Positions 6,139 through 33,470 of a stretch of DNA of 64,000 nt are shown here, in pieces. The stretch's first letter is position 1, and each line of letters begins with the position of its first letter. The notes beneath the pieces are model-generated. The model was not told the origin of the DNA. It saw nothing but the letters and a program-made list of their open reading frames with translations, and searched no databases. The stretch is from an uncultured Candidatus Cloacimonadota bacterium (GTDB lineage Bacteria > Cloacimonadota > Cloacimonadia > Cloacimonadales > TCS61), in the NCBI GenBank assembly GCA_964457455.1, contig CAYWJN010000001.1, forward strand, positions 5,648-69,647. Reading direction: 5' to 3'. The position numbers and the translations under genes are program-made.

Positions 6139-6413
6139 TATCATATGTAAGACGGTATGTCCATGATAACCTAGACAAAAAGAAGAGAAAAAATATTAAG
6201 TGCCCATCGATTTTAAAGAAAAGTGAAGTGGCTCCCATGAACATGTCAACTATTGCAAAGAATACTATGAAAACGCCCAATATTTCTGGTCCAAAATTAC
6301 ATAAATCACTGGGAAAGAAGACCGTAGGGCTACTGGGCAAAGGGATGACTGGGCTTTGGTTGGGGACAAGCATTTTTAATGTAATGAAGAAAAGCAAGAA
6401 CATACCATTATAA
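6135..6413 (+). CDS. leader-family member with displaced motif and glycine-rich C-terminus
   Basis: IKCPSILKKS at 6195-6224. ATT sits where paralogs have ATG. The C-terminus GLLGKGMTGLWLGTSIF is Gly-rich and hydrophobic. Confidence 0.55.
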   Translation: MISYVRRYVHDNLDKKKRKNIKCPSILKKSEVAPMNMSTIAKNTMKTPNISGPKLHKSLGKKTVGLLGKGMTGLWLGTSIFNVMKKSKNIPL

Positions 6414-11711: not shown

Positions 11712-11834
11712 ATGAAATGTCCTAAAATATTGAAAATTGCCGATGTTGAAGATAGAGGGTTATGGCATTGGCATCCAGATGGTGATCTAAACTGTTCAGG
11801 CACTGTTGTAATCGAATGGGTGTTTGTTAAATAG
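11712..11834 (+). CDS. 40-aa chimeric mini-ORF: leader plus a copy of the C-terminus of the 9714 gene
   Basis: Translation is MKCPKILKIADVEDRGLWHWHPDGDLNCSGTVVIEWVFVK. The tail GTVVIEWVFVK parallels GTVVIEWVLLKE at 10313-10349. Confidence 0.4.
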   Translation: MKCPKILKIADVEDRGLWHWHPDGDLNCSGTVVIEWVFVK

Positions 11835-12819: not shown

Positions 12820-14667
12820 ATGAATTGTCCTGTAATACTGAAGAGAGCTTCTCCAAGATGGGTTAAGATGGTGAGGTCTGGGAAATTAGGAAGAGAGTCG
12901 CTTAAAAGACTGGCGGAAGCTGGGTATAAAGACAGGACGATAAAGCCATTAGGTAGAGGAGCTTTCAGGATCGCCGACCTCGTATTCACAGAAGGTATTG
13001 GAAAAGCTGTTAGAAAAATACCTTTAATAGACAGAAAATCTGCAAGCGATATTATAGGAATATATAAAGCTCAGGCAATGGAGCATAAGGTATGGAATAA
13101 AGCGAGGAAGTTAATGCACAAAAAGGGTATTCCTGTAGCGAAAATGGTAAAGAGAAATAAAGGGATTGGATATTATGAATACATTAAGGGGAGAAAAATT
13201 TCTGATAAAGCGGCAATAATAAAAAAAAATATGGTCCCTAATGAGTATCCAAGAGAGGGGACAGTAGCAGAAAAAATTAGATGGCAAAAAAGAATAATTT
13301 CTATAAACAAGGCAAGAGAAAAAGTTCATAAAATAATTAATGCAAATATAATAAACAAGTCGGACTATAAGAATATTAAAAAAAGGTTTCCTCATCTTAG
13401 AGATACTACCGCTCAAAACACAATAGGAAACACTTTAATAGACTTTGATATTACTAACTATAAGGCATTCCCTACAAACTTGGACATGAAACGTAACATT
13501 AAAAAAGATTCATACAGAGCAATGAGGGAGGCGTTAAATGACAGAATGCCCAATAATATTAAAATAGCAACAATGACCGGAGATATAAATAGGGCTCGAA
13601 AAGATACCAACATTAACCCATCAGATGCCCAAATAAAAGCCGAGAACTACAAAAAAGGGTCATTCAAGTGGAATGGACTGACTATTAAATTGGAGAACCC
13701 AAAGGGATCAACGAGATCCGGAACTGACCCAGATGGTAAATCGTGGTCAATAAAGATGAAATATGATTATGGATACATCTCTAATGCACAGGATGGGAAA
13801 GATGGGGACAAAATTGATGTGTTCATAGGAAGTCATCCAGAAAGTCAGATAGTGTATGTAATTGATCAAGTAGACAAGAACGGTAAATTCGATGAACACA
13901 AGTGTATCCTCGGGGCACTCACTGAAGATGAGGCTAGAAAAACATATCTCGCTAATTATGAGAAGGGATGGAAATGTGGACCGATCACGGCGATGACCGT
14001 AGAGCAATTCAAGGAATGGACTATGAAGGGTAGAACCGGAAGTCCTCTAAATAAACAAAAACTTTTTAAAGTGGGAAAAACAATGAATTGCCCCAGCATT
14101 TTACAAAAAAAGTCTTCCCTAAGGTCTATACTTAAATTAAGACCTTTACTTCGAGAAATAAAGGCGCACAAGATTCCTATAGAGAGGCATTTCATCCCAC
14201 TTAAAAAGATCAATCCCACTCTTAAGAGAATGCTCAATATAGAATATGGGGGAGTCAACTCAGATATTGGGGTAAGAGATTATATTAGATTGCTGCGTGG
14301 CGGGCAATTTCTCAAAGGTAGAGGAAATGATTTATCTATATCTATTCCTAAAGTGAAAAATGTTGCTGTCAGGAAGATCGTCTCTATGCTTCCAAGAAAA
14401 AATGAGCCGGCAGCAGTGTTGTCTCACGAACTGGGGCATGCTGTGAAGAGCAAAAAAGGATTATTGGATATTCTTAAGAAACAAACATATAACCAGAAAT
14501 ATTGGAAGAAGCCTACTGCTATGAACGAGTATTTATCAGAAGCGGAAGCAAGTGCTTTTGGATTGAAGACATTAAATAAAATGAAAGATAAGATTCCATT
14601 AAATATGCCAAAGATAAAGAAAATACTATATAAAAAGTTAAAAATTTATGGGGAGGATTTGTTGTGA
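12820..14667 (+). CDS. leader-tagged multidomain protein: kinase-like + conserved phage/plasmid domain + internal leader + HExxH metallopeptidase-like module
   Basis: Starts MNCPVILKRA. Kinase-like motifs are LGRGAFRIADLV, GKAVRKIP, HLRDTTAQN and LIDFD. The middle domain reads AENYKKGSFKWNGLTIKLENPKGSTRSG...YGYI...DGDKIDVFIG. A second leader MNCPSILQKK lies at 14083. HELGH is at 14425-14439. Confidence 0.65.
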   Translation: MNCPVILKRASPRWVKMVRSGKLGRESLKRLAEAGYKDRTIKPLGRGAFRIADLVFTEGIGKAVRKIPLIDRKSASDIIGIYKAQAMEHKVWNKARKLMHKKGIPVAKMVKRNKGIGYYEYIKGRKISDKAAIIKKNMVPNEYPREGTVAEKIRWQKRIISINKAREKVHKIINANIINKSDYKNIKKRFPHLRDTTAQNTIGNTLIDFDITNYKAFPTNLDMKRNIKKDSYRAMREALNDRMPNNIKIATMTGDINRARKDTNINPSDAQIKAENYKKGSFKWNGLTIKLENPKGSTRSGTDPDGKSWSIKMKYDYGYISNAQDGKDGDKIDVFIGSHPESQIVYVIDQVDKNGKFDEHKCILGALTEDEARKTYLANYEKGWKCGPITAMTVEQFKEWTMKGRTGSPLNKQKLFKVGKTMNCPSILQKKSSLRSILKLRPLLREIKAHKIPIERHFIPLKKINPTLKRMLNIEYGGVNSDIGVRDYIRLLRGGQFLKGRGNDLSISIPKVKNVAVRKIVSMLPRKNEPAAVLSHELGHAVKSKKGLLDILKKQTYNQKYWKKPTAMNEYLSEAEASAFGLKTLNKMKDKIPLNMPKIKKILYKKLKIYGEDLL

Positions 14668-14957
14668 GATGTCCAGGGATAATTAAAGAAGCCTTAACTT
14701 CAACATTGTTAGGGAGAGCGTCTACCAAAGCAATGACTAAAGCAATATTCTCTCATAATTTTATTAACGACCTTTCTAAATATAGAAGATACTACCCTGT
14801 CAGATCAATAAAACTACAAGTCAAGGCAATCCCTTATCAGGTTAACTACATGAGACAGGCAAAGAAATTTGAAAAGGCTAGGCAGATAAAGATGGTTAAG
14901 AAATTAAAAAGAGATGCAAGCGATTTGATATCTATAATAAAGAGGAGAATGAAATGA
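14664..14957 (+). CDS. leader-tagged small basic protein
   Basis: GTG start overlaps the previous stop (GTGA), with GGGGAGGA SD upstream. Starts MRCPGIIKEA. Confidence 0.6.
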   Translation: MRCPGIIKEALTSTLLGRASTKAMTKAIFSHNFINDLSKYRRYYPVRSIKLQVKAIPYQVNYMRQAKKFEKARQIKMVKKLKRDASDLISIIKRRMK

Positions 14958-15205
14958 AATGTCCAGAGATAATTAAGGAAGCCTATGTACCGGGATTAAG
15001 GACGGGTATTGGTATGTTGGGTGGTGGTATAGGAGCATCTATGCTAAATAGCTCATCCCAAAATAAAAGGATTAAAAAAGGTAAACAAAAAAAATACAAT
15101 CCTTTGTCTACAATAGGTGCATTTATGGGAGGAAGTTTGTTAGGTGCAGGAGCTGGCGGTTATGCAGATTATAAGAGAATGGGGAAATGGATTAAACAAC
15201 CGTAA
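14954..15205 (+). CDS. leader-tagged glycine-zipper mini-protein
   Basis: Starts MKCPEIIKEA. Contains GIGMLGGGIGASML and IGAFMGGSLLGAGAGGY. Confidence 0.6.
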   Translation: MKCPEIIKEAYVPGLRTGIGMLGGGIGASMLNSSSQNKRIKKGKQKKYNPLSTIGAFMGGSLLGAGAGGYADYKRMGKWIKQP

Positions 15206-21963: not shown

Positions 21964-22846
21964 CGTGCCCAGTGTCAGTCAGAACCAACAAAAATTAATG
22001 GGACTTGTCTATGCAGCCAAAAAGGGCGAAATACCAGTCTCTGCATTACATGGTCCGGCTAGGCAGATATACGAGAAAATGCCCAAAGAAAAAATCAGGG
22101 AATTTGCTAAAACTAAGAGAAAGGGGCTTCCAAAAAAGGCTTCACTACAAAGTGAGGTTATGAGGCAAATGGCCATTAGAATAGGAGGAGGTAGCGCAGT
22201 AGGGGGTGGGCTATCATATGCTGGTACTCTTAAAAACCAATGGGGAAGGTATAAAAAAAAGAATCCATCAGCGACATTTAAACAATTTTATTCTAATAGA
22301 ACACGACGAAATAAAAATGAACTGAAAAAATCTGTGGGTGTGGGTATACGATTAGGGATGTTGGCAGGATCTTTTATCCCGTACAATCACGCAAAATTGC
22401 GGGGCGCATCATATGATGGTTTCAGGCGTGCATATCAACAATACTCAGGGTCGCCGAACATTCCAAAGGCTACCATAAAAAAGAATTTAAGTACTTTCGG
22501 ATTAAAGATGAAAGGAGTTAACTCAAAAAGTCAGGTAAAACAAGCTTATTGGGCAACGATGAGGAAAGTGCATCCCGACAAAGGAGGCAATGAGGAAATT
22601 GCTAAAACAATCAATAGAGCATTTGATGATGTGTCAAAAACGGATTGGTTTAAGAAATTAGCGTATCCCAATATATTGAAGATGGCGCGGGGCAAATCTA
22701 TGCATTTACTTATAGAAAAGAAGGCTTTATGTCCATGGGTATTAAAGGAAGCAACCAAAAGGTGGATACAATCAGCAAATAAATCCATTAAAAGTCGAGG
22801 TACGGAAGGTGTGTGTTCTGGAGCAAACTTTGGTGGACCTACTTGA
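21950..22846 (+). CDS. J-domain protein paralog with leader-like motif near the C-terminus
   Basis: KQAYWATMRKVHPDKGGNEEIAKTI, with HPD at 22571-22579. LCPWVLKEATKRW lies at 22727 onward. An alternative GTG start at 21965 follows GGAG. Confidence 0.7.
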   Translation: MQENNVPSVSQNQQKLMGLVYAAKKGEIPVSALHGPARQIYEKMPKEKIREFAKTKRKGLPKKASLQSEVMRQMAIRIGGGSAVGGGLSYAGTLKNQWGRYKKKNPSATFKQFYSNRTRRNKNELKKSVGVGIRLGMLAGSFIPYNHAKLRGASYDGFRRAYQQYSGSPNIPKATIKKNLSTFGLKMKGVNSKSQVKQAYWATMRKVHPDKGGNEEIAKTINRAFDDVSKTDWFKKLAYPNILKMARGKSMHLLIEKKALCPWVLKEATKRWIQSANKSIKSRGTEGVCSGANFGGPT

Positions 22847-23616: not shown

Positions 23617-24110
23617 ATATGATAAATTATGATAAGGGTCTATTGTATAGTAAAGCATTAAAGGCCGGACAATCTGTTGTGATGAAAACGCCAACAATAA
23701 CTAATTCCCGGGCAAGATATGCACCAGCAATAACTAAGAGAAAAACCGATAATGGGATTAAGTTGGCATGCCCAATAGTACTGAAGGAAGCGGGAATAGT
23801 TGCCGCATTAAAAGCATTTAAACCCATCGCTAAACATATATGGAAAAATCCATATACAAAAGCAGGTATTGTTGGTGGATCTGTCGGTGGAATATCATCG
23901 GGCATAAGCGGTGGAAATGTTGTCAAAGGAACTATAGGTGGTGCTGCAATCGGAGTTGGAGGAAGGTTTGGCTACAAGAAGTTAAAAGCAATAAAACCAA
24001 AAGGTATAAAGATAAAACATAATATAATTAAGAATAAAAAATATCCTGCACACATAGTGTTAGGTAAACAACCCTTAGTTGGTAAGCCCTACGTTGTGTC
24101 TGGAGTTTAG
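23610..24110 (+). CDS. glycine-zipper protein with internal leader motif
   Basis: LACPIVLKEA at 23763-23792. TTG 23763 after GGGA could be an alternative start. Contains GIVGGSVGGISSGISGGNVVKGTIGGAAIGVGG. Confidence 0.55.
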   Translation: MVNMINYDKGLLYSKALKAGQSVVMKTPTITNSRARYAPAITKRKTDNGIKLACPIVLKEAGIVAALKAFKPIAKHIWKNPYTKAGIVGGSVGGISSGISGGNVVKGTIGGAAIGVGGRFGYKKLKAIKPKGIKIKHNIIKNKKYPAHIVLGKQPLVGKPYVVSGV

Positions 24111-24124: not shown

Positions 24125-24394
24125 ATGAAATGTCCACAAATAGTTAAAATGGCCGTTCTCGTAGGTCCTGCCATCGATCTGTCGTTATTTGGAACACCTT
24201 CTTTGATAGGTCATGGAGAAGGTAAGAAAAAGGGATTTAGGGAAGGAGCTATCAGCAGAAAAGAAAATCCGGAACGACTGAAATTTAAAAATTACGCTGG
24301 GCTACTAACGATACCTGGTTCAATAGGTTATCATCTTGGATATATGTCAGGTTGGAGACGAGCACAAACATTAAAAAAAGATAAATCTAGTTAA
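24125..24394 (+). CDS. leader-tagged small protein
   Basis: Starts MKCPQIVKMA, with an AAAGGAG SD. Confidence 0.6.
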   Translation: MKCPQIVKMAVLVGPAIDLSLFGTPSLIGHGEGKKKGFREGAISRKENPERLKFKNYAGLLTIPGSIGYHLGYMSGWRRAQTLKKDKSS

Positions 24395-24648: not shown

Positions 24649-25128
24649 ATGAAATGTCCAAGAATAGTAAAAGAAGCCATTACATTGATGAGAGTATCCA
24701 ACAAAGGTGAGTATAGAGGGTATACCCCAACAAAAGCAAAAGAAATAACAAGCGATAAATATCTGGAATTATCTGATGAATTGAGGAACAAAAGGATAAA
24801 TAGATATAGGAATCTGCCTAAAGTATACAAAAAAAATAGGCAGGTCGCTGGAGGGATATTAGGAGGAGGACTGGGTGGCACAATATCTAGTAGTCTTATG
24901 TCCGGGTCAAAAATAAAAGGAAAATACAAATTACCTATTATATTGGGATCGTCGCTATTAAGTGGAATAGGATTAGGTGCAGCATTTACTCCAAATAAAA
25001 GGAGAATGGAGAGAATGCGAGCATATGCTGATAAAAAAACTGATATAGAAAATTTCAGGAGACATTATCAAAGACCGGGGATAAAGAAAAATCCTAAAAA
25101 CTATAAATACTATATGAGAGATACATAG
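24649..25128 (+). CDS. leader-tagged glycine-zipper protein
   Basis: Starts MKCPRIVKEA. Contains GGILGGGLGGTISSSLMSGS and LLSGIGLGAAF. Confidence 0.65.
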   Translation: MKCPRIVKEAITLMRVSNKGEYRGYTPTKAKEITSDKYLELSDELRNKRINRYRNLPKVYKKNRQVAGGILGGGLGGTISSSLMSGSKIKGKYKLPIILGSSLLSGIGLGAAFTPNKRRMERMRAYADKKTDIENFRRHYQRPGIKKNPKNYKYYMRDT

Positions 25129-25140: not shown

Positions 25141-25236
25141 GTGAGATGTCCCATTGTAGTTAAAGAGGCGGTGATCAGCACTATATTACAACCTCTATTT
25201 GTTGCAAAGATCAAAAGAGAAGAAAGATATCATTGA
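25141..25236 (+). CDS. 31-aa leader-only mini-ORF
   Basis: GTG start after AGGAAA. Translation is MRCPIVVKEAVISTILQPLFVAKIKREERYH. Confidence 0.35.
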   Translation: MRCPIVVKEAVISTILQPLFVAKIKREERYH

Positions 25237-25280
25237 CCAATTATACGAAGTTATGGAAAGAGCAAATTAAAGGAGAAATA

Positions 25281-25661
25281 ATGAAACGTCCATTAATAAT
25301 TAAAGAAGCAATAGTCAAAGATATTGCAGACATCGAAGACGAAATATCAACTAATCCACAATATACCAAAAGTCAGGCAATAAAAGACTACAAGACTCAT
25401 GCTTTTGATAATATTGAGCAGGGACGATTGCCTGCTGTTCTATTAGGGGCTGGGATAGGGGCACTATCTTCGCTGATAGGACCAAAATCTTTAATGAAGA
25501 CTATGCGTCATGTAGGTGCAGGAGGACTATCTGGGGGGGCAGCAAAAGTTTTATCTGAAATTGATGATTTAAAAGCAAAAGCATTCCCCAGTGTATTACA
25601 GAGAGATGCTGAAAAGTATGTTAATTCATTAATAAAATATTATAGGGCGCCCCGAATATAA
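25281..25661 (+). CDS. leader-variant (RP for CP) glycine-zipper protein
   Basis: Track ORF is 25233-25661. ATG 25281 follows AAAGGAG. Starts MKRPLIIKEA and contains LLGAGIGALSSLIG and VGAGGLSGGAAKV. Confidence 0.6.
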   Translation: MKRPLIIKEAIVKDIADIEDEISTNPQYTKSQAIKDYKTHAFDNIEQGRLPAVLLGAGIGALSSLIGPKSLMKTMRHVGAGGLSGGAAKVLSEIDDLKAKAFPSVLQRDAEKYVNSLIKYYRAPRI

Positions 25662-25673
25662 CTGGGAGAACAA

Positions 25674-27662
25674 ATGATCAAATATATTGACCTCCCATCT
25701 TACGATAAGAATGGGAACCCCACTGTCCAGCCGATTAATTTTTATGGCATGGAGAAAGTGGCTAATTACAATTACATGCCCAAAGATGCTCAGGAGTTTG
25801 TGGCGAACATAACGCCGGTAAAAAATAGGGTCTTCTTGCTGATCAGTGCGGTTGCCGATGAGTGTTGGGGAGCAAATAGTAATTCAGATTTCTTCCCAAC
25901 TATGAGTCTAAGTAATCCTACGGATGATTGGGGGTATAAAACTTACCTTAAGGCACATTATTTTCATCGCCATGAGAATAAAGACCCAGCCAAAGGGTTC
26001 GGTAGAGTGATTTTCTCCACATGGGATGAGATGATGGGCAGAGTGCTGGTAGTTGCAGAGGTGGATACCCTGAAGGATTTGGACACGAAGCAGATGCTGG
26101 ATAGTCACCAGCATATTCCGACATCGATGGGCATGAGGGTTCCTTATGATGTTTGTCGGGTATGCCATCCTAAATGGAAAGAATTCTACAAGATTCCGGA
26201 AAATGAAATGATCAAAATATCTATTTCCGGCGATATTGATGAGATAAAGGCGATTGGCAAAAAGTATGGCGTTGATTTGTCATATATTACTGAATTGAAT
26301 GACGAAGAATTCAAGGAAACTGATGATGGACAAAAGAAGAGTCTCGGAAGAGGTCCTGTTGGGATTCACTCAACATTGAACAAATATTGCGACCATATGA
26401 AGTACATGAGGGGTAGAATGGTGCCCTCAACCGGTATAGTTGTCTCTGTGGTCAATATGAGACCTAAGTTTTTCGATATAAGTAAGGTGGGAACGAATGC
26501 TGAAAAATCCAGTTATGTCCTGCAGAAGGTTGCTAGCAAAGATGACTCTGGCAGAATAACAGAAGAAGAATTAATTGAAATAGAAAAAGCCTCCGAGAAC
26601 AAGAGGGCAGAAGATAAGAAGGCAGATATTGAAAAAGAGGTAGAAGGCCAAGTATTAAGTGATGATCATATGGCGATTAACAATTATATCGGTGAAAAAA
26701 TAGTCCCGGAATTGAAAGCATCTGAAATGGATCTTCCGGTGGGAACAATAAGTGAGATTGCAAAATATCCCATTGATGATATTCTGACAACATTCTTGAG
26801 TGCGGGGGCATACCCTCGTCCACGGGAATTTCAGAGGATTATCTTAATTCAAATGGGGAAAAAAGATGATGCAGATGAATATGATAGACAGAAAATAGTT
26901 ATTCCGGATACAATAGAGGGAATTCCAACATCTGGGGAATGCTTACCAGGAATAACCTTCTCTCCAGATAAAATTAATAACAATATTTTTGATATCATAA
27001 AACCGTTTTTAATGCAAAGGTCATATTATAGACCATGCATGATCAAGAGAATCGTGATGGTAAAGAGGGCAAATGAAATTAATGCATATTTAGATCCGCC
27101 CAAAAATCATAAATCGCCCTTACCTGGAATATTAGGAACCATCGCTGCTACCTATATGTTGTCGAAAACAAAAGCAGGAAAACACCTTGTCCCGCTTGTT
27201 AAAAATATAAAAGGTAACCCAAAACTCTGGATAGCCGCCATTGTCGGCAGCGAGGTGGCTTCGCGTTTATTTAACTATTCGCGGGAAGAAATGGGTAATA
27301 ATATGGTTAAGACATCTGCTAAATATACGAATATAGCTACCTTGGTTGGGCTGCCCGTGGCATCTTATTTATATGCTGGGCATGTTTATAATAAAGCCAA
27401 ATCGGGAAGACATATCAGCGGTGTTGAAAAATTCGTGGCCAAAAATCCTGGAGGGGTTGGAATTGCTGCTGGGCTTACCGCTAATCCCCATACTCGAAAA
27501 GCAATAAAAGTAATACTTAAGGGAGTGGTAGGGAAGCATGCCGAACTTGATATGTTAATAAAAAATGGAATGGATTTTAATGGGATGGATATAACGCAAT
27601 ATCCTATAGAAGATAGAGATAGCATTATTGCATCGATGTGGAAAAATCTATATGATAAATAA
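25674..27662 (+). CDS. prohead serine protease (HK97/S78-like N-terminal domain) with long C-terminal extension
   Basis: The three blocks recalled for this family appear in order. The His block is YFHRHENKDPAKGFGRVIFSTWDEMMGRVLVVAEV. The Ser block is IPTSMGMRV. The late block is FFDISKVGTNAEKSSYV. Position is just upstream of scaffold-like and capsid genes. Confidence 0.55.
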   Translation: MIKYIDLPSYDKNGNPTVQPINFYGMEKVANYNYMPKDAQEFVANITPVKNRVFLLISAVADECWGANSNSDFFPTMSLSNPTDDWGYKTYLKAHYFHRHENKDPAKGFGRVIFSTWDEMMGRVLVVAEVDTLKDLDTKQMLDSHQHIPTSMGMRVPYDVCRVCHPKWKEFYKIPENEMIKISISGDIDEIKAIGKKYGVDLSYITELNDEEFKETDDGQKKSLGRGPVGIHSTLNKYCDHMKYMRGRMVPSTGIVVSVVNMRPKFFDISKVGTNAEKSSYVLQKVASKDDSGRITEEELIEIEKASENKRAEDKKADIEKEVEGQVLSDDHMAINNYIGEKIVPELKASEMDLPVGTISEIAKYPIDDILTTFLSAGAYPRPREFQRIILIQMGKKDDADEYDRQKIVIPDTIEGIPTSGECLPGITFSPDKINNNIFDIIKPFLMQRSYYRPCMIKRIVMVKRANEINAYLDPPKNHKSPLPGILGTIAATYMLSKTKAGKHLVPLVKNIKGNPKLWIAAIVGSEVASRLFNYSREEMGNNMVKTSAKYTNIATLVGLPVASYLYAGHVYNKAKSGRHISGVEKFVAKNPGGVGIAAGLTANPHTRKAIKVILKGVVGKHAELDMLIKNGMDFNGMDITQYPIEDRDSIIASMWKNLYDK

Positions 27663-27749
27663 ATTGCTTGACAAATAATCAGAAAATTATCAAGCATAAC
27701 ATCATATAGTATGAATAATAAAAACATTGTAAAAAAAGGAGTAAAGACA

Positions 27750-28106
27750 ATGGGTGAAATTAAGAAAGTAGCAGAAGAAATGTTGGCAAATGATTTCATT
27801 AGCCTTGGCTATATTGAACAAGCGGAATCATTGGAGAAAGAGGCTTTTAAAATCAATTTTAAGCCAATACTTGGTAAAGGTAAAGGGTTGATGGGCAGGA
27901 TGAAAACCTTTTACGGCAAAGCTAAAAAATTCCCTGCCAAGCATTACAATAAAGCGACAACTTATACCACCAGTACGACTAATAAATTGCGCGATATAGT
28001 TACTGGCAGACGAGGGCGCAAAGCTCAAGCAATTGCAATAGGAACAGGTGGGCTTGGGTTGGCTGGTGCTGGTTATGGTGGATATAATATCCTCAAAAAG
28101 AAGTAA
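27750..28106 (+). CDS. small protein with Gly-rich C-terminus
   Basis: Track ORF is 27711-28106. ATG 27750 follows AAAGGAG. C-terminus reads AIAIGTGGLGLAGAGYGGY. Confidence 0.55.
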   Translation: MGEIKKVAEEMLANDFISLGYIEQAESLEKEAFKINFKPILGKGKGLMGRMKTFYGKAKKFPAKHYNKATTYTTSTTNKLRDIVTGRRGRKAQAIAIGTGGLGLAGAGYGGYNILKKK

Positions 28107-28124: not shown

Positions 28125-28691
28125 ATGTTTGAATTTTTAAACAAATTAGCCGCAAATGAAGAAGAAACTGGGCTTACAAAAAGTGCTCAATATCTTATTG
28201 TAAAAAAAGCGCAAGATAAAACCATTGAATACCTTAAGGAATCCAAAGAGTTTGAAAATGCATTTCCAGAAGTTATCAAGATTGCCAACGACGAGTTGGA
28301 AAAGATGTCAGAAGAAGATAAAGTAAAGGCCCATAATCTTTATGCTTTTGGTGCTGGGTGTGCATATGGTGAAGCATTAACCAAAGAGGCTATGGCAGGA
28401 CCGATGGCTGACGAAATTTATGCCACAATGATTCAGGTATTGAATGATAAGGGACACGAAAAGTTGGCAGAAGAGGTTGACAAGGTTTTAAACGAGGAGA
28501 GTCCTGCTCTTACCGAGGCTGAAATAATTGCAGAAGTGGCTAGTGAGGCTGCTGCTGAAAATCTGGTCGAAGAAGCTGGTGGAGAAGAAGTGGTGGAAAA
28601 AAATCCTGAAATTGCTGCTGAAATTCTGGAAACATCTCAAGCTATAGGTGCAGAGGTAGCTCAAGAAGTGACAGAAAAAACTGGCGAATAA
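28125..28691 (+). CDS. acidic scaffold-like protein
   Basis: Highly acidic and helical, with a Glu/Ala-rich C-terminus. Position is between the protease and the capsid gene. Confidence 0.5.
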   Translation: MFEFLNKLAANEEETGLTKSAQYLIVKKAQDKTIEYLKESKEFENAFPEVIKIANDELEKMSEEDKVKAHNLYAFGAGCAYGEALTKEAMAGPMADEIYATMIQVLNDKGHEKLAEEVDKVLNEESPALTEAEIIAEVASEAAAENLVEEAGGEEVVEKNPEIAAEILETSQAIGAEVAQEVTEKTGE

Positions 28692-28712: not shown

Positions 28713-29192
28713 ATGGAGAATAAAGGAATCTTGGGAAGTTCGAATTTATTGCAATCCATCATAGATAAATCAGCATCTATAATTACCTCTGAAGGTAACA
28801 ACAAGACAGAATCATCCCATATAGACGACGACCCATTATCCCTTGCCCAGCAACTGGAAGAAGCGGCGAAAAAACCGTCAGGCAAAGAACCGAAGAAAAA
28901 ATATCCAGATAAAGAAGATGACAAGAAGAAAGAGCCAGAAAAAACTGCTGAAATAGAATTCTTCAGCAAAGAAGCACATGAAATTTTTGACCGTATTGAG
29001 CAGAGAATATCAGATGTGGATATCATAAAAGAGGGTAAAATTAAGGTTAAAAAGTTTGTATGGCCAGCGATTGCTGCAGCAACAGGAATAGGCGCATTCT
29101 TTGGTGGTAAAAAATATGAAGCTGGGAAAGACGAAACAGAAGATCGTCGAATTGCCAGGTTTTTCTATCGTCTAGGGCAAAGGAGCAAATGA
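28713..29192 (+). CDS. charged protein with IIKEG site and Gly-rich C-terminal segment
   Basis: DIIKEGKIKV is followed by WPAIAAATGIGAFFGG. Confidence 0.55.
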   Translation: MENKGILGSSNLLQSIIDKSASIITSEGNNKTESSHIDDDPLSLAQQLEEAAKKPSGKEPKKKYPDKEDDKKKEPEKTAEIEFFSKEAHEIFDRIEQRISDVDIIKEGKIKVKKFVWPAIAAATGIGAFFGGKKYEAGKDETEDRRIARFFYRLGQRSK

Positions 29193-29596
29193 TGGGTAAT
29201 AATAATAATGAATTAATGAAGAAATCAGCTGGGAAGATCCGTGAACTTGATCAGAAGATCAAAGAAATGGAAAAAGATGCAATAGATAAAAAAAAAGATA
29301 TTGATAAAGCGAATGAAAAGTTGCAACAGGCTAATGACAAGATTGCTTCGCTTGAAAAAGAAAATAAATGTAAGGCTATCGTATCAGGTCTGGTTGACGA
29401 TGAAGTGATTGGGAAGGTACACGAAAAGATTGCTTTTGATAAATTGTATAATAGCCCAAATCCTGAAGATTTGGAAGCAATTTATCGCGCAACCAGAAAT
29501 GATAAAGATGGTGACATAGAAAAATCGGCAGGTAGATATGAGAAATCTAAATCTGCTAAAGAAGAATTCTTACAAAATTTTGTGGGAATTCATTAA
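29189..29596 (+). CDS. coiled-coil scaffold-like protein
   Basis: K/E/D-rich with heptad-like sequence. Overlaps the previous stop (ATGATG). Confidence 0.5.
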   Translation: MMGNNNNELMKKSAGKIRELDQKIKEMEKDAIDKKKDIDKANEKLQQANDKIASLEKENKCKAIVSGLVDDEVIGKVHEKIAFDKLYNSPNPEDLEAIYRATRNDKDGDIEKSAGRYEKSKSAKEEFLQNFVGIH

Positions 29597-30098: not shown

Positions 30099-31106
30099 AT
30101 GAATATAGATAATACACAATTAATAAAAGAGGCGAACGATATTCTGCAAGACCTTGCGATGAATGGTCGTGAGGCAAAAGATAATTTTATAACGAAATTC
30201 GGAACTTCTCTGGAAAATTACGTCAAGAGATATGTAAGGGAAGAGGCTTTCTCTGAGAAACTCTTGGTCAATAAAACCATGTCACCGAAGGATCCGGGTA
30301 TTCAAGAGACCGAAGATGCTGATGTATTTTACGTACTTGACAAGAAGGAAATCGGAGCAACCGCTGCCGAGGTCTCTATAAGAGGTGATACCCAACCCAT
30401 TTTCGTAGACACAAAAAAATATAAGATATGGATCGGCAAAATTGAAACAGAACGGCACAAAAAACCATGGCTGGAACTTGAAACATCTTCTGCTTCCGAT
30501 CTTGTTGATATGGTAACGAAAAATGGTGCCGAAGCAATAAGGCGAACTCAAGATTTAGGCTTTATCAAGAATGTTGCTTCCATATTGACAATTACGGGTA
30601 ATCATGTTGGTGGAGACACCACAGTATATACTGATACTATCGATTGGACAAATAGTGGTAGAAAAAAAGATCTTACGAACCTAATGTCCTATATCACACG
30701 ACAAGGACTTGTGCCTGCTAAATGGTTGATGTCTCAGACTGCATGGAATGATATGCTTGCATTTGATGCTGGTGAAGTTGGTAATCTTGCTGGAGAGACT
30801 TTTAAAAACGGTATAGCGCAGAAAGTCCTGCTGGATATTCCTGTCATTACAACCATAAAGGCAGACCTTAAAAATGATGATGAAACTATTTACTATTTTG
30901 ATAAAGAAGGTGATAGCGGCGAGCTCTATACAGATATCTATTTGTTTGTAGATCCATCTTATTTGGGTAAAAACATCAAAATTGGAAGCGATAAATCTGA
31001 TTCCAAATGGGAATGGGATGATTTCATCTGGGGTGCATGGAGATATACCGGTCACGGATTTGGCGACACTCGTGGTATCTGTAGGATGAGAATCCGAATT
31101 AAATAA
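30099..31106 (+). CDS. putative major capsid protein
   Basis: 335-aa ORF with a strong AAAGGAG SD, following the protease and scaffold-like genes and preceding a strong terminator region. The N-terminus carries LIKEA at 30120-30134. Confidence 0.55.
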   Translation: MNIDNTQLIKEANDILQDLAMNGREAKDNFITKFGTSLENYVKRYVREEAFSEKLLVNKTMSPKDPGIQETEDADVFYVLDKKEIGATAAEVSIRGDTQPIFVDTKKYKIWIGKIETERHKKPWLELETSSASDLVDMVTKNGAEAIRRTQDLGFIKNVASILTITGNHVGGDTTVYTDTIDWTNSGRKKDLTNLMSYITRQGLVPAKWLMSQTAWNDMLAFDAGEVGNLAGETFKNGIAQKVLLDIPVITTIKADLKNDDETIYYFDKEGDSGELYTDIYLFVDPSYLGKNIKIGSDKSDSKWEWDDFIWGAWRYTGHGFGDTRGICRMRIRIK

Positions 31107-32207: not shown

Positions 32208-32950
32208 GAATAAGTGAATTTACAGCAGAAAGAACAAATACTCATACTGTCTTATTAATGTGGACGACAATGCCCCCAATAATGGAGTTAGAATTTGATG
32301 TATTAAGGGCATTAAATGATGGGGATGAGTTCCAAATAATATCTCGGGGAAAAGCCACATCATATCTTGATATAGAACAGAAAGCGATTAATAATAAGTA
32401 TATTAAATATAAAATAGTGTGTGGGAAAGAAGAATCTAACATCGTGACTCCTAATAATATTGGTGATCCTTATTTGTTGGGAGTTGCTTCAGATATTTTA
32501 TGGCAATTGGAAAAAGTTCCCCTCGGGGAGATATCTTATATTTATTGCAAATCAGAAACGAATATGAATTGTACTAATTGCTACAATGAGACTCTAAAAA
32601 AAAGAATCAAATCTTCCTGCTCAAGTTGTGGTGGCAGTGGAAGAATAAACGGATATAAAGGACCGGTTACAACATATATCAATTATAGTAGGACAATAAC
32701 GGATGATATTCAAATTGGTCAAATCGAAAAAGAAGAAGAAGTTGTACAGGCTTATATGTCAAATTTACCCATCGTTAAACAGGGAGACATAGTTATCAGG
32801 AGCAATCGGGAGCGATATGTCGTGAACAGACAACCGGATTACACATATTTAATGGGATCTATGGGCAAATTTATCGTGAGGCAGAATATCCTCCTAAAAA
32901 AACTCCATTATCAGGATATTGCATTTACTCTGGAAGTGCCGAATGTTTAA
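32204..32950 (+). CDS. neck or head-completion protein with zinc-ribbon insertion
   Basis: ATGA overlap start at 32204. CTNC...CSSCGGSG matches the CxxCxGxG pattern. Confidence 0.45.
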   Translation: MRISEFTAERTNTHTVLLMWTTMPPIMELEFDVLRALNDGDEFQIISRGKATSYLDIEQKAINNKYIKYKIVCGKEESNIVTPNNIGDPYLLGVASDILWQLEKVPLGEISYIYCKSETNMNCTNCYNETLKKRIKSSCSSCGGSGRINGYKGPVTTYINYSRTITDDIQIGQIEKEEEVVQAYMSNLPIVKQGDIVIRSNRERYVVNRQPDYTYLMGSMGKFIVRQNILLKKLHYQDIAFTLEVPNV

Positions 32951-33470
32951 TAAAACGGCGTTAAAAGAAGCAAATTTGATATGGTTAAGGGGATTACTCT
33001 TTAATCATGAAGATTATTCTGCGGACAATTTTTATACATCTGGAGATTGGGCGGAAAAAATGGAATATCCGGGCATGGTTGTATCAATAGCAAGGGAAAA
33101 TGTAGTAATCAATGGCAGCAATGGATTATTATCATATGATCCTATGAGCGAAGACCGTATATATTTATATATATCAGATTTTACTATCGTTGTTGAAATA
33201 TACAGCACAAACGATGAAGAGGTTGAATCTATCGCAAGCTATCTCATGTCTCAAATGAGGGAGACCTATACTCTCCCAAAATCTACGGACATAAGTATTT
33301 CAAGAACATTTGATGATATTGTTAAAGATAAAGCAACACCCAGGGAAAATAACTTTATGAAAGGATGGGTGTCGACAGTTTATTATGATATAAGAGTCAA
33401 TATGACAAAAACAATAGAAGGGGAATTTCATGATTGGTTCCCAACGGTGAGAGAAGTAAGTGGAGACTAA
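32943..33470 (+). CDS. tail-completion or neck protein (positional)
   Basis: ATG 32943 overlaps the previous stop. Starts MFNKTALKEAN. Confidence 0.45.
   Translation: MFNKTALKEANLIWLRGLLFNHEDYSADNFYTSGDWAEKMEYPGMVVSIARENVVINGSNGLLSYDPMSEDRIYLYISDFTIVVEIYSTNDEEVESIASYLMSQMRETYTLPKSTDISISRTFDDIVKDKATPRENNFMKGWVSTVYYDIRVNMTKTIEGEFHDWFPTVREVSGD

What the first reader, a model, noticed from the sequence alone, without database searches (positions are those of the whole stretch)
25674..27662. Prohead protease candidate, with matching [IL]IKE[AG] sites in the capsid protein and other head proteins
Seen in sequence, the N-terminal 270 aa or so shows the ordered His, Ser and late blocks that I recall for HK97/S78-type prohead proteases:
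- His block: HRHENKDPAKGFGRV..MGRVLVVAEV
- Ser block: TSMGMRV
- Late block: FFDISKVGTNAEKS

An acidic linker and Gly/Ala-rich hydrophobic segments follow.

Outside the leader family, the leader core also appears in three places:
- Residues 8-12 of the putative major capsid protein (TQLIKEAND, 30120-30134).
- DIIKEGKI in 28713-29192.
- NLIKEGVA in 6423-8435.

A related ALKEAN lies at the N-terminus of 32943-33470.

Established knowledge: T4-type and many HK97-fold proteases cut after Glu in hydrophobic-x-E contexts and trim the capsid protein N-terminus.

Inference: hydrophobic-hydrophobic-K-E followed by A or G is this protease's recognition site. That would link the leader to head maturation. 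I have not computed a formal enrichment.
Basis: partly seen in the sequence, partly recalled or inferred. Interest (0 to 1): 0.6.

Follow-up and report, generated by a model that had tools for sequence, protein, structure and literature searches.

The report
Unannotated phage head protease, shared motif
This gene very probably encodes the enzyme that trims a phage's head proteins during assembly; it belongs to a widespread branch with no database family, and its likely recognition tag (hydrophobic-x-Lys-x-Ala) marks the capsid protein, the scaffold-like proteins, the enzyme itself and a set of small leader-bearing head proteins.

Summary
ORF 25674-27662 (662 aa) carries the three blocks described, and they are the most conserved parts of a family of more than 180 metagenomic homologues. 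His100 and Ser151 are invariant. Every cited [IL]IKE[AG] site is at the stated coordinates, and the strict motif occurs 9 times against 0.7 expected.

The protease call is supported by fold, not by profile. There is no Pfam, PHROG or PDB sequence hit. An AlphaFold model (pLDDT 93) matches 96 viral models, many named prohead protease. Profile comparison links it to Bacillus phage G gp19 and to a Gordonia phage "capsid maturation protease".

The motif needs revising. The conserved residues are Lys and Ala in hydrophobic-x-K-x-A, and Glu is optional. This motif:
- flanks the protease domain on both sides (K28/A30 in 91 of 91 sequences);
- sits in the N-terminus of 65% of capsid-protein relatives;
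- is enriched 3-6 fold in the head module of the window and of 8 related phages;
- is not enriched in tail genes or as permuted variants.

Published N-terminal sequencing of the phage G capsid protein places the cut after the equivalent Ala. "Cuts after Glu like T4" is therefore not supported.

This is a known kind of system with a new specificity and architecture.

The parts
25674..27662 (+). ORF of 662 aa: protease domain, acidic linker and helical C-terminal region
   Evidence: There are 181 homologues at E<=1e-3, most 550-700 aa. The start MIKYID is conserved in homologues.
25749..25763 (+). N-flank motif M26-E-K28-V-A30, the putative N-terminal self-cleavage site
   Evidence: K28 and A30 are present in 91 of 91 sequences inside an otherwise variable N-terminus. 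Position 26 is F/L/M; position 29 is T/V/L/I/M/E.
25764..26534 (+). Catalytic domain (aa 31-287) with a prohead-protease fold
   Evidence: AF2 model of aa 1-300: pLDDT 92.9, pTM 0.83. Foldseek against BFVD gives 96 hits at E<=1e-3, many named prohead protease or COG3740. hhalign gives probability 99.8% to phage G gp19 and 99.1% to Stormageddon gp13.
25965..26009 (+). His block; putative catalytic His100 (nt 25971-25973)
   Evidence: H100, N102 and G110 are invariant and K103 nearly so.
26121..26141 (+). Ser block; putative nucleophile Ser151 (nt 26124-26126)
   Evidence: S151-M152-G153 are invariant. The block aligns with HK97 gp4 Ser114 'MSVGF' (weak statistics). Inteins are inserted between G153 and residue 154 in 5 homologues.
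26154..26165 (+). C161-x2-C164, first half of a putative Cys3-His zinc site
   Evidence: Nearly invariant. Also present in phage G gp19 and Stormageddon gp13 but absent from HK97 gp4. Weak Zn_ribbon hits occur in two homologues. Inteins are inserted at V160|C161 in two homologues.
26181..26372 (+). Lineage-specific insertion (aa 170-233) between the two halves of the Cys/His cluster
   Evidence: Absent from distant homologues, where query aa 169 joins aa 234 directly. Predicted helices and strands at pLDDT of about 96-98.
26388..26396 (+). C239-D-H241, second half of the putative zinc site
   Evidence: Y238, C239 and H241 are nearly invariant.
26469..26510 (+). Late block FFDISKVGTNAEKS
   Evidence: F266, D268, S270 and A276 are invariant. 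The block aligns with HK97 gp4 'REISVCTFPANEQA' once the insertion is removed (weak statistics).
26520..26534 (+). C-flank motif L283-Q-K285-V-A287, the putative self-cleavage site that releases the catalytic domain
   Evidence: K285 is present in 87 of 91 sequences, A287 in 86 of 91, and position 283 is M/L/I. The equivalent 'ILEKVAS' occurs in phage G gp19.
26535..26654 (+). Acidic/charged linker (aa 288-327)
   Evidence: Sequence. This is where an InPase domain (PF18823) is inserted in some homologues. It contains a conserved K-x-A-x-I-x-K-x-V.
26655..27074 (+). Conserved all-helical domain (aa 328-467, includes PRPREFQRIILI); function unknown
   Evidence: AF2 pLDDT is 85-98 over this stretch. 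No significant PDB fold match. F386 and Q387 are nearly invariant.
27111..27518 (+). Gly/Ala-rich, moderately hydrophobic C-terminal segments (aa 480-615)
   Evidence: Sequence and hydropathy. Low-confidence helices.
30099..31106 (+). Major capsid protein (335 aa)
   Evidence: PHROG 2522 major head protein, 1.6e-5. The family profile matches phage G gp27 (major capsid) at probability 99.4%. Synteny with the protease holds in 8 loci.
30120..30134 (+). Capsid-protein motif L8-I-K10-E-A12, the putative maturation site (12-residue propeptide if cut after Ala12)
   Evidence: K10 is invariant and position 12 is A/G in close relatives. The motif lies in the first 60 aa of 94 of 145 family representatives, against 12.2 +/- 3.2 in shuffles.
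28125..28691 (+). Acidic scaffold-like protein with 5 motif copies (aa 5, 17, 25, 50, 85)
   Evidence: K19/A21, K52/A54 and K87/A89 are invariant in three orthologues of 35-52% identity.
27711..28106 (+). Small head-module protein with 2 motif copies and a Gly-rich C-terminus
28713..29192 (+).
   Evidence: DIIKEG aligns with VVKEA in the L002 orthologue; FSKEA is invariant.
29189..29596 (+). Coiled-coil-like head-module protein with 3 motif copies
6423..8435 (+).
   Evidence: No Pfam or PHROG hit.
10605..10634 (+). Leader copy MKCPCIIKTS (N-terminus of the 355-aa protein)
11712..11741 (+). Leader copy MKCPKILKIA (40-aa mini-ORF, probable remnant)
12820..12849 (+). Leader copy MNCPVILKRA (N-terminus of the InPase/metallopeptidase cargo protein)
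14083..14112 (+). Internal, degenerate leader copy MNCPSILQKK inside ORF 12820-14667
   Evidence: It lacks the Lys/Ala register.
14664..14693 (+). Leader copy (V/M)RCPGIIKEA
14954..14983 (+). Leader copy MKCPEIIKEA (83-aa Gly-rich protein)
22727..22753 (+). Internal leader-like copy LCPWVLKEA near the C-terminus of ORF 21950-22846
23766..23792 (+). Internal leader-like copy ACPIVLKEA (aa 53-61 of ORF 23610-24110)
24125..24154 (+). Leader copy MKCPQIVKMA
24649..24678 (+). Leader copy MKCPRIVKEA (159-aa Gly-rich protein)
25141..25170 (+). Leader copy (V/M)RCPIVVKEA (31-aa mini-ORF, probable remnant)
25281..25310 (+). Leader copy MKRPLIIKEA (probable true start of ORF 25233-25661)
6198..6224 (+). 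Internal leader-like copy KCPSILKKS in ORF 6135-6413
32943..33470 (+). Protein downstream of the capsid gene starting MFNKTALKEAN; substrate status uncertain
   Evidence: Orthologues read VAIKEAN, MLIKESA and VAIKAHV.

Best explanation
ORF 25674-27662 encodes this uncultured myovirus's head-maturation (prohead) serine protease.

Architecture:
- Residues about 31-287 form a catalytic domain of the HK97/assemblin fold class. The likely dyad is His100/Ser151, and there is an inserted Cys3-His (zinc-ribbon-like) element.
- The domain belongs to a clade that has no Pfam or PHROG model. Its cultured members include Bacillus phage G gp19, Gordonia phage Stormageddon gp13, Salmonella phage Arash gp222 and Vibrio phage D181 gp277.
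- An acidic linker joins it to a conserved helical C-terminal region of unknown role.

Proposed mechanism (inferred):
- The protein is built into the procapsid and then cuts at hydrophobic-x-Lys-x-Ala, most probably directly after the Ala.
- This frees its own catalytic domain at K28-V-A30 and K285-V-A287.
- It removes about 12 residues (MNIDNTQLIKEA) from the capsid protein.
- It fragments the scaffold-like proteins encoded between the protease and capsid genes.
- It removes the ~10-residue 'M-K-C-P-x-hydrophobic-hydrophobic-K-x-A' leaders from at least 10 small Gly-rich proteins and enzyme cargo.
- The leaders thus act like T4 capsid-targeting sequences: address plus cleavage tag.

What is shown and what is not:
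- Shown: the fold, the invariant residues, and the location, conservation and enrichment of the motif.
- Inferred: catalysis, that the motif is the cleavage site, and the scissile bond.
For: Fold:
- The AF2 model has pLDDT 92.9.
- It has 96 BFVD matches at E<=1e-3, including many entries named prohead protease or COG3740. The top hits are phage G gp19, phiRSL1 and PaBG proteins.
- The weak PDB hits cluster on HCMV/HSV assemblin and T4 gp21.

Family:
- hhalign gives probability 99.8% (E = 2.7e-28) to phage G gp19. A preprint calls gp19 the head maturation protease (10.1101/2024.12.16.628780).
- hhalign gives probability 99.1% to Stormageddon gp13, annotated 'capsid maturation protease'.

Active site:
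- H100 and S151 are invariant in 91 sequences, 51 residues apart. The corresponding spacing in HK97 gp4 is 49.
- Ser151 and the late block align with HK97 Ser114 and 'EISVCTFPAN'.
- Inteins sit at three of the invariant spots: N68|S69, G153|154 and V160|C161.

Context:
- The gene lies upstream of the scaffold-like genes, a decoration-like gene and the capsid gene in the window and in 8 related loci.
- Arash gp222 is a virion protein by mass spectrometry (PMC10585845).

Motif:
- K28/A30 occur in 91 of 91 sequences, K285 in 87 of 91 and A287 in 86 of 91.
- The capsid family carries the motif in the first 60 aa in 94 of 145 representatives. Shuffles give 12.2 +/- 3.2, and other 60-aa windows of the same proteins give 7-11.
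- In the window it lies in the first 45 aa of 16 of 33 head-region ORFs against 1 of 37 others (Fisher P = 7.6e-6).
- Over all positions the head region has 49 copies against 16.6 +/- 3.9 expected (z = 8.2). The rest of the window has 11 against 11.8.
- All 8 related loci are enriched 3.5-6 fold in the head core (0 of 1000 shuffles reach the observed count). None is enriched downstream of the capsid gene.
- Permuted or substituted motifs are not comparably enriched (|z| <= 3.4, against 25.7 for the motif pooled).
- Sites are positionally invariant in orthologous scaffold-like proteins.

Scissile bond:
- The phage G capsid protein is 282 aa and its mature form is 255 aa by N-terminal sequencing (PMC5646251 Table 1).
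- That places the cut after A27 in ...EEGRVALA|QAMANPIRV.
- A27 lies 8 residues before the anchor Arg. Eight is the most common spacing between the motif Ala and that Arg in the capsid family (31 proteins at 8, 25 at 9).
- The family is homologous to G gp27 (probability 99.4%).
Against: - There is no Pfam, PHROG or PDB sequence match for this ORF or for any tested family member. HK97 gp4 hits PF04586 at 4.9e-30 in the same run.
- hhalign to HK97 gp4 itself is at noise level (E = 0.017-0.19) and does not place the His block.
- No experiment on any member of the K-x-A group shows cleavage.
- The motif was generalised after looking at the data. The tail genes, the permuted motifs and the eight other loci serve as controls, but those loci were chosen by protease homology.
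- Some leader copies lack the Lys or the Ala: ILQKK at 14083, IIKTS at 10605, ILKKS at 6198.
- The phage G capsid site has Ala, not Lys, at the Lys position.
- In the subgroup with a spacing of 9 (Arash, D181), the mapping of the G cut is ambiguous by one residue.
Confidence: 0.72

Rival explanations
1. The protease is T4-like in specificity and cuts after Glu in hydrophobic-hydrophobic-K-E|[AG], so the mature capsid protein would start at Ala12 (ANDIL...).
For: In this window the commonest residue between Lys and Ala is Glu (11 of 49 sites), and most leaders read IIKEA. I-K-E fits the T4 gp21 consensus hydrophobic-x-E (established knowledge). K-E-A is enriched (z = 3.9 in the window, 8.9 pooled), although that is expected as a subset of K-x-A.
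Against: - The residue is not conserved at orthologous sites. At the protease N-flank it is T58, V14, L4, I4, M3, E2 of 91. In capsid-protein sites it is T17, E15, V14, L13 and others. In the C-flank it is V/I/L.
- Hydrophobic-x-E-[AG] is not enriched in the 8 related loci (z = 0.7).
- Several leaders in the window itself have T, R, K, M or I there.
- The phage G capsid protein is cut after an Ala, with Leu at the Glu-equivalent position.
Confidence: 0.08
2. Same protease and same motif, but the cut is directly after the Lys (hydrophobic-x-K|x-A). The register matches HK97 (F-N-K103|S) and T4 (hydrophobic-x-E|). The capsid protein would then start at Glu11.
For: Lys is the most conserved position, and P1 usually dominates specificity. 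The hydrophobic residue two positions before it matches the P3 preference of T4 gp21. The HK97 gp5 sequence reads ...KTFNK|SLGSD at the known 103/104 cleavage site (plus established knowledge of the HK97 cut).
Against: The only experimental anchor in this clade, the phage G capsid protein, is cut after the Ala-equivalent residue and has no Lys at the site. The invariant Ala two residues after the cut would then need a separate explanation.
Confidence: 0.12
3. The motif is a docking or targeting signal recognised by the scaffold, the capsid interior or the protease, and is not itself cleaved. Processing, if any, happens elsewhere.
For: The leaders carry extra conserved residues (Cys-Pro four to five residues upstream) that are not needed for a minimal cleavage site. 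No cleavage data exist. Arash gp222 is recovered from virions with 85% peptide coverage.
Against: - Multiple copies per scaffold-like protein (5 in 188 aa) and copies flanking the catalytic domain fit degradation or release better than docking.
- Internal copies occur, not only N-terminal ones.
- The homologous position in the phage G capsid protein is a proven cleavage point.
Confidence: 0.06
4. The ORF is a structural or cargo protein with a degenerate, inactive protease-like fold. The cutting is done by another enzyme: a host protease, or the HELGH metallopeptidase domain of ORF 12820-14667.
For: No profile match to any curated protease family. The protein stays in Arash virions. The window encodes an M91/M48-like HExxH domain.
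Against: - His100 and Ser151 and their neighbours are invariant in 91 diverged sequences, and inteins target them. Inactive homologues normally lose such residues.
- The motif is conserved in phages of very different hosts (Salmonella, Vibrio, uncultured), which argues against a host enzyme.
- The metallopeptidase itself carries a leader, so it is cargo.
- No other protease-like hit was found among the head-module ORFs tested.
Confidence: 0.03

Closest known systems
Bacillus phage G gp19 and actinobacteriophage 'capsid maturation protease' (e.g. Gordonia phage Stormageddon gp13)
   Same: Clear homologues of the catalytic domain (hhalign probability 99.8% and 99.1%). They share the H-x-N, VSMGC, CxxC...CxH and FF(D/E)IS motifs. 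G gp19 is flanked by LVKTA and LEKVA copies. The phage G capsid protein is homologous to this capsid family and is N-terminally processed.
   Different: G gp19 is 300 aa without the helical C-terminal half. Stormageddon gp13 is a 1089-aa fusion. The window protein has an extra 64-aa insertion inside the Cys/His cluster. None of them matches a Pfam protease model. No cleavage motif has been described for them in the literature I could search.
T4 gp21 prohead protease with the capsid-targeting sequences of internal proteins (IPI-III, Alt)
   Same: The logic is the same. One head protease trims the capsid protein, degrades the core and scaffold, processes itself, and removes ~10-residue N-terminal leaders that address internal proteins to the head. 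There is a hydrophobic residue two positions before the key residue.
   Different: There is no sequence or profile relationship (PF03420 not hit). T4 cuts after Glu. Here Glu is dispensable, and Lys and Ala are the fixed residues.
phiKZ gp175 and SPN3US gp245 (giant-phage prohead proteases)
   Same: Many head and ejection proteins are cleaved at one consensus. The protease has a removable C-terminal part. Paralogous families of internal proteins exist (PMC10052503).
   Different: Their motif is (S/A/G)-x-E or A-x-E with Glu at P1, and their propeptides are often above 100 aa. Here the propeptides are mostly 10-30 aa, and the motif is hydrophobic-x-K-x-A.
HK97 gp4 (Pfam PF04586, Peptidase_S78)
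   Same: Same fold class by comparison with viral models named prohead protease or COG3740. His comes before Ser at similar spacing (49 against 51). The Ser and late blocks can be aligned. The gene sits immediately upstream of the capsid module.
   Different: The profile is not matched. HK97 gp4 has no Cys/His cluster and no long C-terminal region. HK97 cuts its capsid protein after Lys103 and removes a 103-residue scaffolding domain.
Herpesvirus assemblin (S21)
   Same: The weak structural hits in PDB cluster on HCMV and HSV proteases. Assemblin cuts after Ala in (V/L)-x-A|S (established knowledge), which resembles the proposed K-x-A| with small residues often following.
   Different: The matches are not significant. 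Assemblin uses a Ser-His-His triad, which was not examined here. Its hosts are eukaryotic.

Membership tests
HK97-type prohead serine protease (Pfam PF04586 Peptidase_S78) | Sequence matches the family profile above threshold | tested here: not met
   No Pfam hit for the ORF at E<=0.1. None of 9 relatives hits at E<=10, while HK97 gp4 scores 4.9e-30 in the same run.
HK97-type prohead serine protease (Pfam PF04586 Peptidase_S78) | Assemblin-like protease fold | tested here: met
   The AF2 model (pLDDT 92.9) has 96 BFVD matches at E<=1e-3 with probability 1.00, many named prohead protease or COG3740. Against solved structures there are only weak hits to assemblin and T4 gp21.
HK97-type prohead serine protease (Pfam PF04586 Peptidase_S78) | Catalytic His followed about 50 residues later by catalytic Ser, both conserved | tested here: met
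   H100 and S151 are invariant in 91 sequences. S151 aligns with HK97 Ser114 (weak statistics). The His alignment to HK97 His65 was not recovered by hhalign.
HK97-type prohead serine protease (Pfam PF04586 Peptidase_S78) | Gene lies in the head module upstream of the scaffold and major capsid genes | tested here: met
   the same order is found in the window and in 8 related loci.
HK97-type prohead serine protease (Pfam PF04586 Peptidase_S78) | Proteolytic activity on capsid proteins | not testable with these tools
   Indirect evidence only: the phage G capsid protein, from a phage with a homologous protease, loses 27 residues (PMC5646251).
T4 gp21-type prohead protease (Pfam PF03420 Peptidase_S77) | Profile match | tested here: not met
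   Only a weak structural hit to 5jbl (E = 0.85).
T4 gp21-type prohead protease (Pfam PF03420 Peptidase_S77) | Substrate sites have Glu at P1 (hydrophobic-x-E) | tested here: not met
   Glu is not conserved at orthologous sites. Hydrophobic-x-E-[AG] is not enriched in related loci (z = 0.7).
T4 gp21-type prohead protease (Pfam PF03420 Peptidase_S77) | Short cleavable N-terminal leaders on internal head proteins (capsid-targeting sequences) | tested here: inconclusive
   At least 10 leader-bearing ORFs end in the shared motif. Neither targeting nor cleavage has been shown.
Phage G gp19-like protease clade (no curated model) | Profile-level homology to G gp19 | tested here: met
   hhalign probability 99.8%, E = 2.7e-28. 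tblastn 8e-3. Second-ranked BFVD hit.
Phage G gp19-like protease clade (no curated model) | CxxC...CxH cluster after the catalytic Ser strand | tested here: met
   C161, C164, C239 and H241 are nearly invariant. The cluster is also present in G gp19 and Stormageddon gp13. Metal binding was not tested.
Phage G gp19-like protease clade (no curated model) | Partner capsid protein homologous to G gp27 with an N-terminal propeptide | tested here: met
   hhalign probability 99.4%. The propeptide is proven only for phage G.
Herpesvirus assemblin (S21) | Cleavage after Ala in (V/L)-x-A|S | tested here: inconclusive
   The Ala is invariant in the motif and small residues often follow it. The cut after Ala is inferred from the phage G capsid protein only.

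The most novel reading that the evidence does not exclude
Hydrophobic-x-K-x-A may be the address and cleavage code of a large, essentially unannotated clade of phage head proteases, reaching from phage G and actinophages to Arash, marine Vibrio phages and many uncultured phages.

In this phage the extended 'MKCPx-hydrophobic-hydrophobic-KxA' leader would then be a portable tag. It would load a varied cargo into the head for delivery into the host. The cargo would include an InPase plus metallopeptidase polyvalent protein, J-domain proteins and a family of Gly-rich mini-proteins. The protease's own helical C-terminal half would be one of the delivered proteins.

If so, the motif would let the packaged and ejected proteome of these phages be read from sequence alone. 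It would also offer a T4-CTS-like handle for packaging foreign proteins.
Probability: 0.35. Interest if true: 0.65.

Novelty: new variant of a known kind. Interest (0 to 1): 0.5.

Why it matters
Head-maturation proteases and their cleavage codes are worked out for only a few phage lineages: T4, phiKZ/SPN3US, HK97 and lambda.

- **An unannotated protease.** This protein has no curated family, yet it has more than 180 relatives in metagenomes. In several cultured phages (Arash, Vibrio D181/D148/D69) its homologue is annotated only as 'structural' or 'hypothetical'. Recognising it gives those genomes their missing protease.
- **A readable code.** The motif gives a testable rule for which head proteins are processed. 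It also predicts which small proteins and enzymes are packaged as cargo.
- **An evolutionary link.** If the cut is after Ala, the specificity resembles herpesvirus assemblin more than T4. That bears on the shared ancestry of these enzymes.

The general principle, however, is already well known.

Tried and rejected
Searches that found nothing useful:
- Pfam and PHROG scans of the ORF and of 9 relatives gave no protease family.
- phmmer and profile searches against PDB sequences gave only chance hits, such as enterovirus VP1 at E = 0.26.
- Foldseek against PDB gave nothing at E<=1e-3. MlaD/MCE hits topped the list and were dismissed as beta-barrel noise.
- Fold search of the C-terminal half gave only insignificant helical membrane-protein hits, so its function remains unknown.
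- hhalign to HK97 gp4 was at noise level with or without the insertion. It is used only as a consistency check.
- The word-indexed search with the capsid protein found only 5 relatives. It was replaced by the exhaustive profile search.
- Megablast of nt 20000-32000 against cultured phages found no match. The cluster look-up gave no names.

Literature:
- The Arash paper and its supplements hold no peptide-level data and no protease call.
- The phage G cryo-EM paper (PMC7316594) is not held.
- Searches for a Lys/Ala-type prohead cleavage motif, the Felix O1 paper and the jumbo-phage survey gave nothing relevant.

Ideas considered and rejected:
- That the enrichment merely reflects leader paralogy. 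It persists in non-homologous proteins, in orthologous columns and in 8 other loci.
- That it reflects helix or coiled-coil composition. Shuffles and permuted motifs exclude this.
- That another head-module ORF is the protease. No candidate turned up.

Full report
**Setting.** The window is a phage morphogenesis region. All sizeable ORFs are on the + strand, with uniformly positive GC skew.

Recognisable genes:
- a gpA-type large terminase at 15220-16839 (Pfam 2.5e-8, PHROG 1.2e-40);
- a major capsid protein at 30099-31106 (PHROG 'major head protein' 1.6e-5);
- a tail sheath at 33539-35581.

Proteins identical to the window's capsid protein and to the ORF under study occur on a 134.6-kb metagenomic contig. 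No cultured phage matches at the DNA level.

**Checking the observation.**
- There are 181 homologues at E<=1e-3, none with a name or Pfam domain apart from inserted inteins or an InPase domain.
- In an alignment of 91 of them the invariant residues are K28, A30, N68, D72, H100, N102, G110, R123, S151, M152, G153, D159, N261, F266, D268, S270 and A276.
- C161, C164, C239 and H241 are nearly invariant.
- All four cited motif sites are present.
- The strict pattern [ILV][ILV]KE[AG] occurs 10 times in the six-frame translation, only in + strand coding frames between nt 6966 and 30120.
- In called ORFs it occurs 9 times against 0.68 expected. The three copies outside the leader family give P = 0.033 across all ORFs, or 0.006 for head-region ORFs only.

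**Is it a prohead protease?**

By profile, no:
- Pfam and PHROGs give nothing for this ORF.
- Nine relatives tested, including phage G gp19 and Stormageddon gp13, also give nothing. HK97 gp4 hits Peptidase_S78 at 4.9e-30 in the same run.
- PDB sequence searches give only chance hits.

By fold and by profile-profile comparison, yes:
- An AlphaFold2 model of residues 1-300 is confident (pLDDT 92.9, pTM 0.83).
- Foldseek against solved structures finds nothing significant. The weak hits that are not MlaD barrels are all HCMV/HSV assemblin and T4 gp21.
- Against predicted viral structures there are 96 matches at E<=1e-3, all listed ones with probability 1.00. Many are named prohead protease, prohead serine protease or COG3740 head maturation protease. 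The list is led by Bacillus phage G gp19 and by phiRSL1 and PaBG proteins.
- hhalign of the family profile gives probability 99.8% (E = 2.7e-28) to G gp19. It gives 99.1% to the N-terminus of Gordonia phage Stormageddon gp13, annotated 'capsid maturation protease'.
- A recent preprint lists G gp19 as the head maturation protease.
- Against HK97 gp4 itself the alignment is at noise level. It nevertheless puts Ser151 on the catalytic Ser114 ('MSVGF' against 'TSMGM'). With the lineage-specific insertion removed, it puts the late block on 'REISVCTFPAN'.
- His-to-Ser spacing is 51 residues here and 49 in HK97 gp4.

Independent support comes from inteins. Eight homologues carry inteins at three different points:
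- between G153 and residue 154 (five proteins);
- between N68 and S69 (one protein);
- between V160 and C161 (two proteins).

All three points sit next to invariant residues. Inteins characteristically sit in the functional core of essential proteins (established knowledge).

The gene lies upstream of small scaffold-like genes, a decoration-like gene and the capsid gene, in the window and in eight related loci. The homologue in Salmonella phage Arash (gp222, 'structural protein') was found in virions by mass spectrometry. That paper names no protease.

**Distinctive anatomy.**
- A CxxC...CxH cluster follows the catalytic Ser strand. It is shared with G gp19 and Stormageddon gp13 and absent from HK97 gp4.
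- In the window protein a 64-residue, confidently folded insertion (aa 170-233) splits this cluster. Distant homologues lack it.
- After residue 287 comes an acidic linker. Some homologues carry an inserted InPase domain there.
- Next is a conserved all-helical domain (aa ~328-467, pLDDT 85-98), followed by low-confidence Gly/Ala-rich helices.
- This half has no significant structural match, and I cannot assign it a role.

**The motif, revised.** Comparing orthologous sites changes its definition.

In the protease family:

| Site | Hydrophobic position | Lys | Residue between Lys and Ala | Ala |
|---|---|---|---|---|
| N-flank (aa 26-30) | F/L/M | K28, 91 of 91 | T58, V14, L4, I4, M3, E2 | A30, 91 of 91 |
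| C-flank (aa 283-287), end of catalytic domain | M/L/I | K285, 87 of 91 | V/I/L/A | A287, 86 of 91 |

The catalytic domain is thus bracketed by two copies of hydrophobic-x-K-x-A.

Capsid-protein N-termini in relatives read as follows:
- LIKEA (window), MIKEA, MVKQS, LEKIA, IEKIG and LEKTG among closer relatives;
- LVKEA (Arash), LTKEA (D181), LQKTA and ITKAA among more distant ones.

An exhaustive profile search gave 344 capsid relatives. Among 145 full-length representatives:
- the motif lies in the first 60 residues in 94;
- shuffling gives 12.2 +/- 3.2;
- other 60-residue windows of the same proteins give 7-11;
- the residue between Lys and Ala is T, E, V, L, F, Q and others.

In the window:
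- The motif falls in the first 45 residues of 16 of 33 head-region ORFs against 1 of 37 others (Fisher P = 7.6e-6).
- Over all positions the head region has 49 copies against 16.6 +/- 3.9 expected (z = 8.2). The remaining genes have 11 against 11.8.

In related loci:
- In each of eight loci, including the cultured phages Arash and D181, the head core has 16-36 copies against 3.7-8.3 expected (0 of 1000 shuffles reach the observed count).
- Genes downstream of the capsid gene are at expectation.

Specificity controls:
- Permuted orders and K-to-R, A-to-S, A-to-G and A-to-L substitutions are not comparably enriched (|z| <= 3.4, against 25.7 for the motif pooled).
- T4-style hydrophobic-x-E-[AG] has z = 0.7 in the pooled loci.
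- Glu fills the middle position in 11 of 49 window sites and 39 of 208 pooled sites. It is the commonest residue there but is clearly not required.

Sites are positionally conserved in divergent orthologues:
- K19/A21, K52/A54 and K87/A89 are invariant in the scaffold-like protein 28125-28691.

**Where is the cut?** No member with the K-x-A motif has been studied. There is, however, one experimental anchor.
- Hua et al. 2017 (PMC5646251, Table 1) give the phage G capsid protein as 282 residues, and 255 when mature, by N-terminal sequencing.
- The gp27 sequence then places the cut after Ala27...EEGRVALA|QAMANPIRV.
- The capsid family here is homologous to gp27 (hhalign probability 99.4%).
- Ala27 lies 8 residues before the conserved Arg of the first helix. 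That is the most common distance between the motif Ala and that Arg in the family (31 proteins at 8, 25 at 9).
- The best reading is therefore cleavage directly after the Ala: hydrophobic(P5)-x-K(P3)-x-A(P1)|.
- This recalls herpesvirus assemblin's (V/L)-x-A|S (established knowledge).

Caveats:
- The phage G site has Ala, not Lys, at P3.
- In the 9-spaced subgroup (Arash, D181) the mapping is uncertain by one residue.
- A cut after Lys remains possible. That is the register of HK97's F-N-K103|S, visible.

**The leaders.**
- Thirteen copies of [C/R]-P-x-[ILV]-[ILV]-[K/Q] occur on the + strand between nt 6198 and 25310.
- Nine or ten are true N-termini of the form M-K/R/N-C-P-x-hydrophobic-hydrophobic-K-x-A.
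- They head small basic proteins with Gly-rich hydrophobic stretches, and two larger enzymes: 10605-11672 and 12820-14667. The latter combines InPase PF18823 (1e-50) with an HELGH M91/M48-like domain.
- Four copies are internal (nt 6198, 14083, 22727, 23766). This fits a processing site better than a translation-start feature.
- Close relatives have the same kind of leader: MRSPEIIKIA and MQCPIIIKEA in L002, MELIKCPVMIKIG in L005.
- More distant relatives have different leaders that still end in K-x-A: [MS]xFWxGFEK[QKR]A in L006, FLQGFLKEA in L007.
- This is the architecture of the T4 capsid-targeting sequence: a short N-terminal address ending at the protease site.
- The role of the conserved Cys-Pro is unexplained.

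**Mechanism proposed.** Steps 2-5 are inferred.
1. The 662-residue protein is a His100/Ser151 protease of the HK97/assemblin fold class.
2. It co-assembles into the procapsid.
3. On activation it cuts at hydrophobic-x-K-x-A. This releases its catalytic domain from the N-terminal 30 residues and from the C-terminal half.
4. It removes the first 12 residues of the capsid protein. It also fragments the scaffold-like proteins, which have 2-5 sites each and whose pieces can leave the shell.
5. It strips the leaders from internal proteins, which stay inside and are probably ejected with the DNA.

**Comparison and novelty.**
- Functionally this is the T4 / phiKZ / SPN3US paradigm (PMC10052503), run by an enzyme of the phage G gp19 clade.
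- It fails the Pfam membership tests for S78 and S77. It meets the fold, catalytic-residue and gene-context criteria.
- What appears to be new:
  - the hydrophobic-x-K-x-A code, for which I found no description in the searchable literature;
  - the zinc-ribbon-like insert and the fused helical half;
  - the breadth of an unannotated clade that supplies the 'missing' protease of Arash and the Vibrio D-phages.
- I rate it a new variant of a known kind, of moderate interest.

Noticed in passing
homologues P0014, P0020, P0024, P0026, P0040 (after window aa 153); P0100 (after aa 68); P0103, P0108 (after aa 160): Eight metagenomic homologues of the protease carry inteins (147-397 aa, some with LAGLIDADG/HINT Pfam domains). 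They sit at three different insertion points, each next to invariant residues.
   Followed up: yes
window 12820-14667 and 10605-11672: The 615-aa leader-bearing protein combines a ~250-aa unknown domain, an InPase domain (PF18823, 1e-50), an internal second leader-like copy (MNCPSILQKK, nt 14083) and an HELGH M91/M48-like metallopeptidase. It looks like a packaged 'polyvalent' cargo protein. ORF 10605-11672 is a paralogue truncated at the start of the InPase domain.
   Followed up: partly
window 11712-11834 and 25141-25236: Two mini-ORFs (40 and 31 aa) consist of little more than a leader (MKCPKILKIA..., (V/M)RCPIVVKEA...). They are probably remnants of decayed leader-family genes. The first is preceded by 'QKLFKVGEQ', which matches the end of the InPase module in ORF 12820.
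   Followed up: partly
window 11923-12807 and 21950-22846: Two head-region proteins have sub-threshold J-domain matches with an HPD motif (DnaJ 1.1e-4 and 2.2e-4). The second also has DUF3008 (1.1e-13) and a leader-like LCPWVLKEA near its C-terminus.
   Followed up: partly
window 14954-15205, 23610-24110, 24649-25128, 25281-25661, 27711-28106, 28713-29192: A set of small basic proteins have Gly-zipper-like stretches (GGILGGGLGG, GIVGGSVGGISSGISGG, LGAGIGALSS, GTGGLGLAGAGYGG), resembling the Gly/Ala-rich C-terminus of the protease ORF. No Pfam hits. They may be internal or ejection proteins.
   Followed up: partly
window 18469-21237 and 17065-18411: The 922-aa and 448-aa proteins after the terminase have no Pfam or PHROG hit, so the portal is not identifiable by profile. 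The 448-aa protein carries 5 motif copies and the 922-aa protein one.
   Followed up: partly
window 22918-23616: A 232-aa protein with an N-terminal transmembrane-like segment gives a weak PHROG hit to Rz-like spanin (8.6e-6). It lies in the middle of the head module.
   Followed up: no
window 9714-10349: A 211-aa protein with a signal-peptide-like N-terminus (MKKLVIILLAMLLVTSLFA) lies among the head-region genes.
   Followed up: no
L005 14265-15488 and P0131, P0137, P0141, P0142, P0144 and others: Some capsid-protein relatives are 370-445 aa and match the profile in two stretches. This implies a domain of about 70-100 aa inserted into the HK97-fold capsid protein in some lineages.
   Followed up: no
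L001 (Salmonella phage Arash) 14887-16362; L009 (Vibrio phage D181) 12001-13416: The protease homologues of these cultured phages are annotated only as 'structural protein' or 'hypothetical protein'. Their head modules are as rich in the K-x-A motif as the window: 32 against 5.6 expected in Arash, and 36 against 6.1 in D181.
   Followed up: yes
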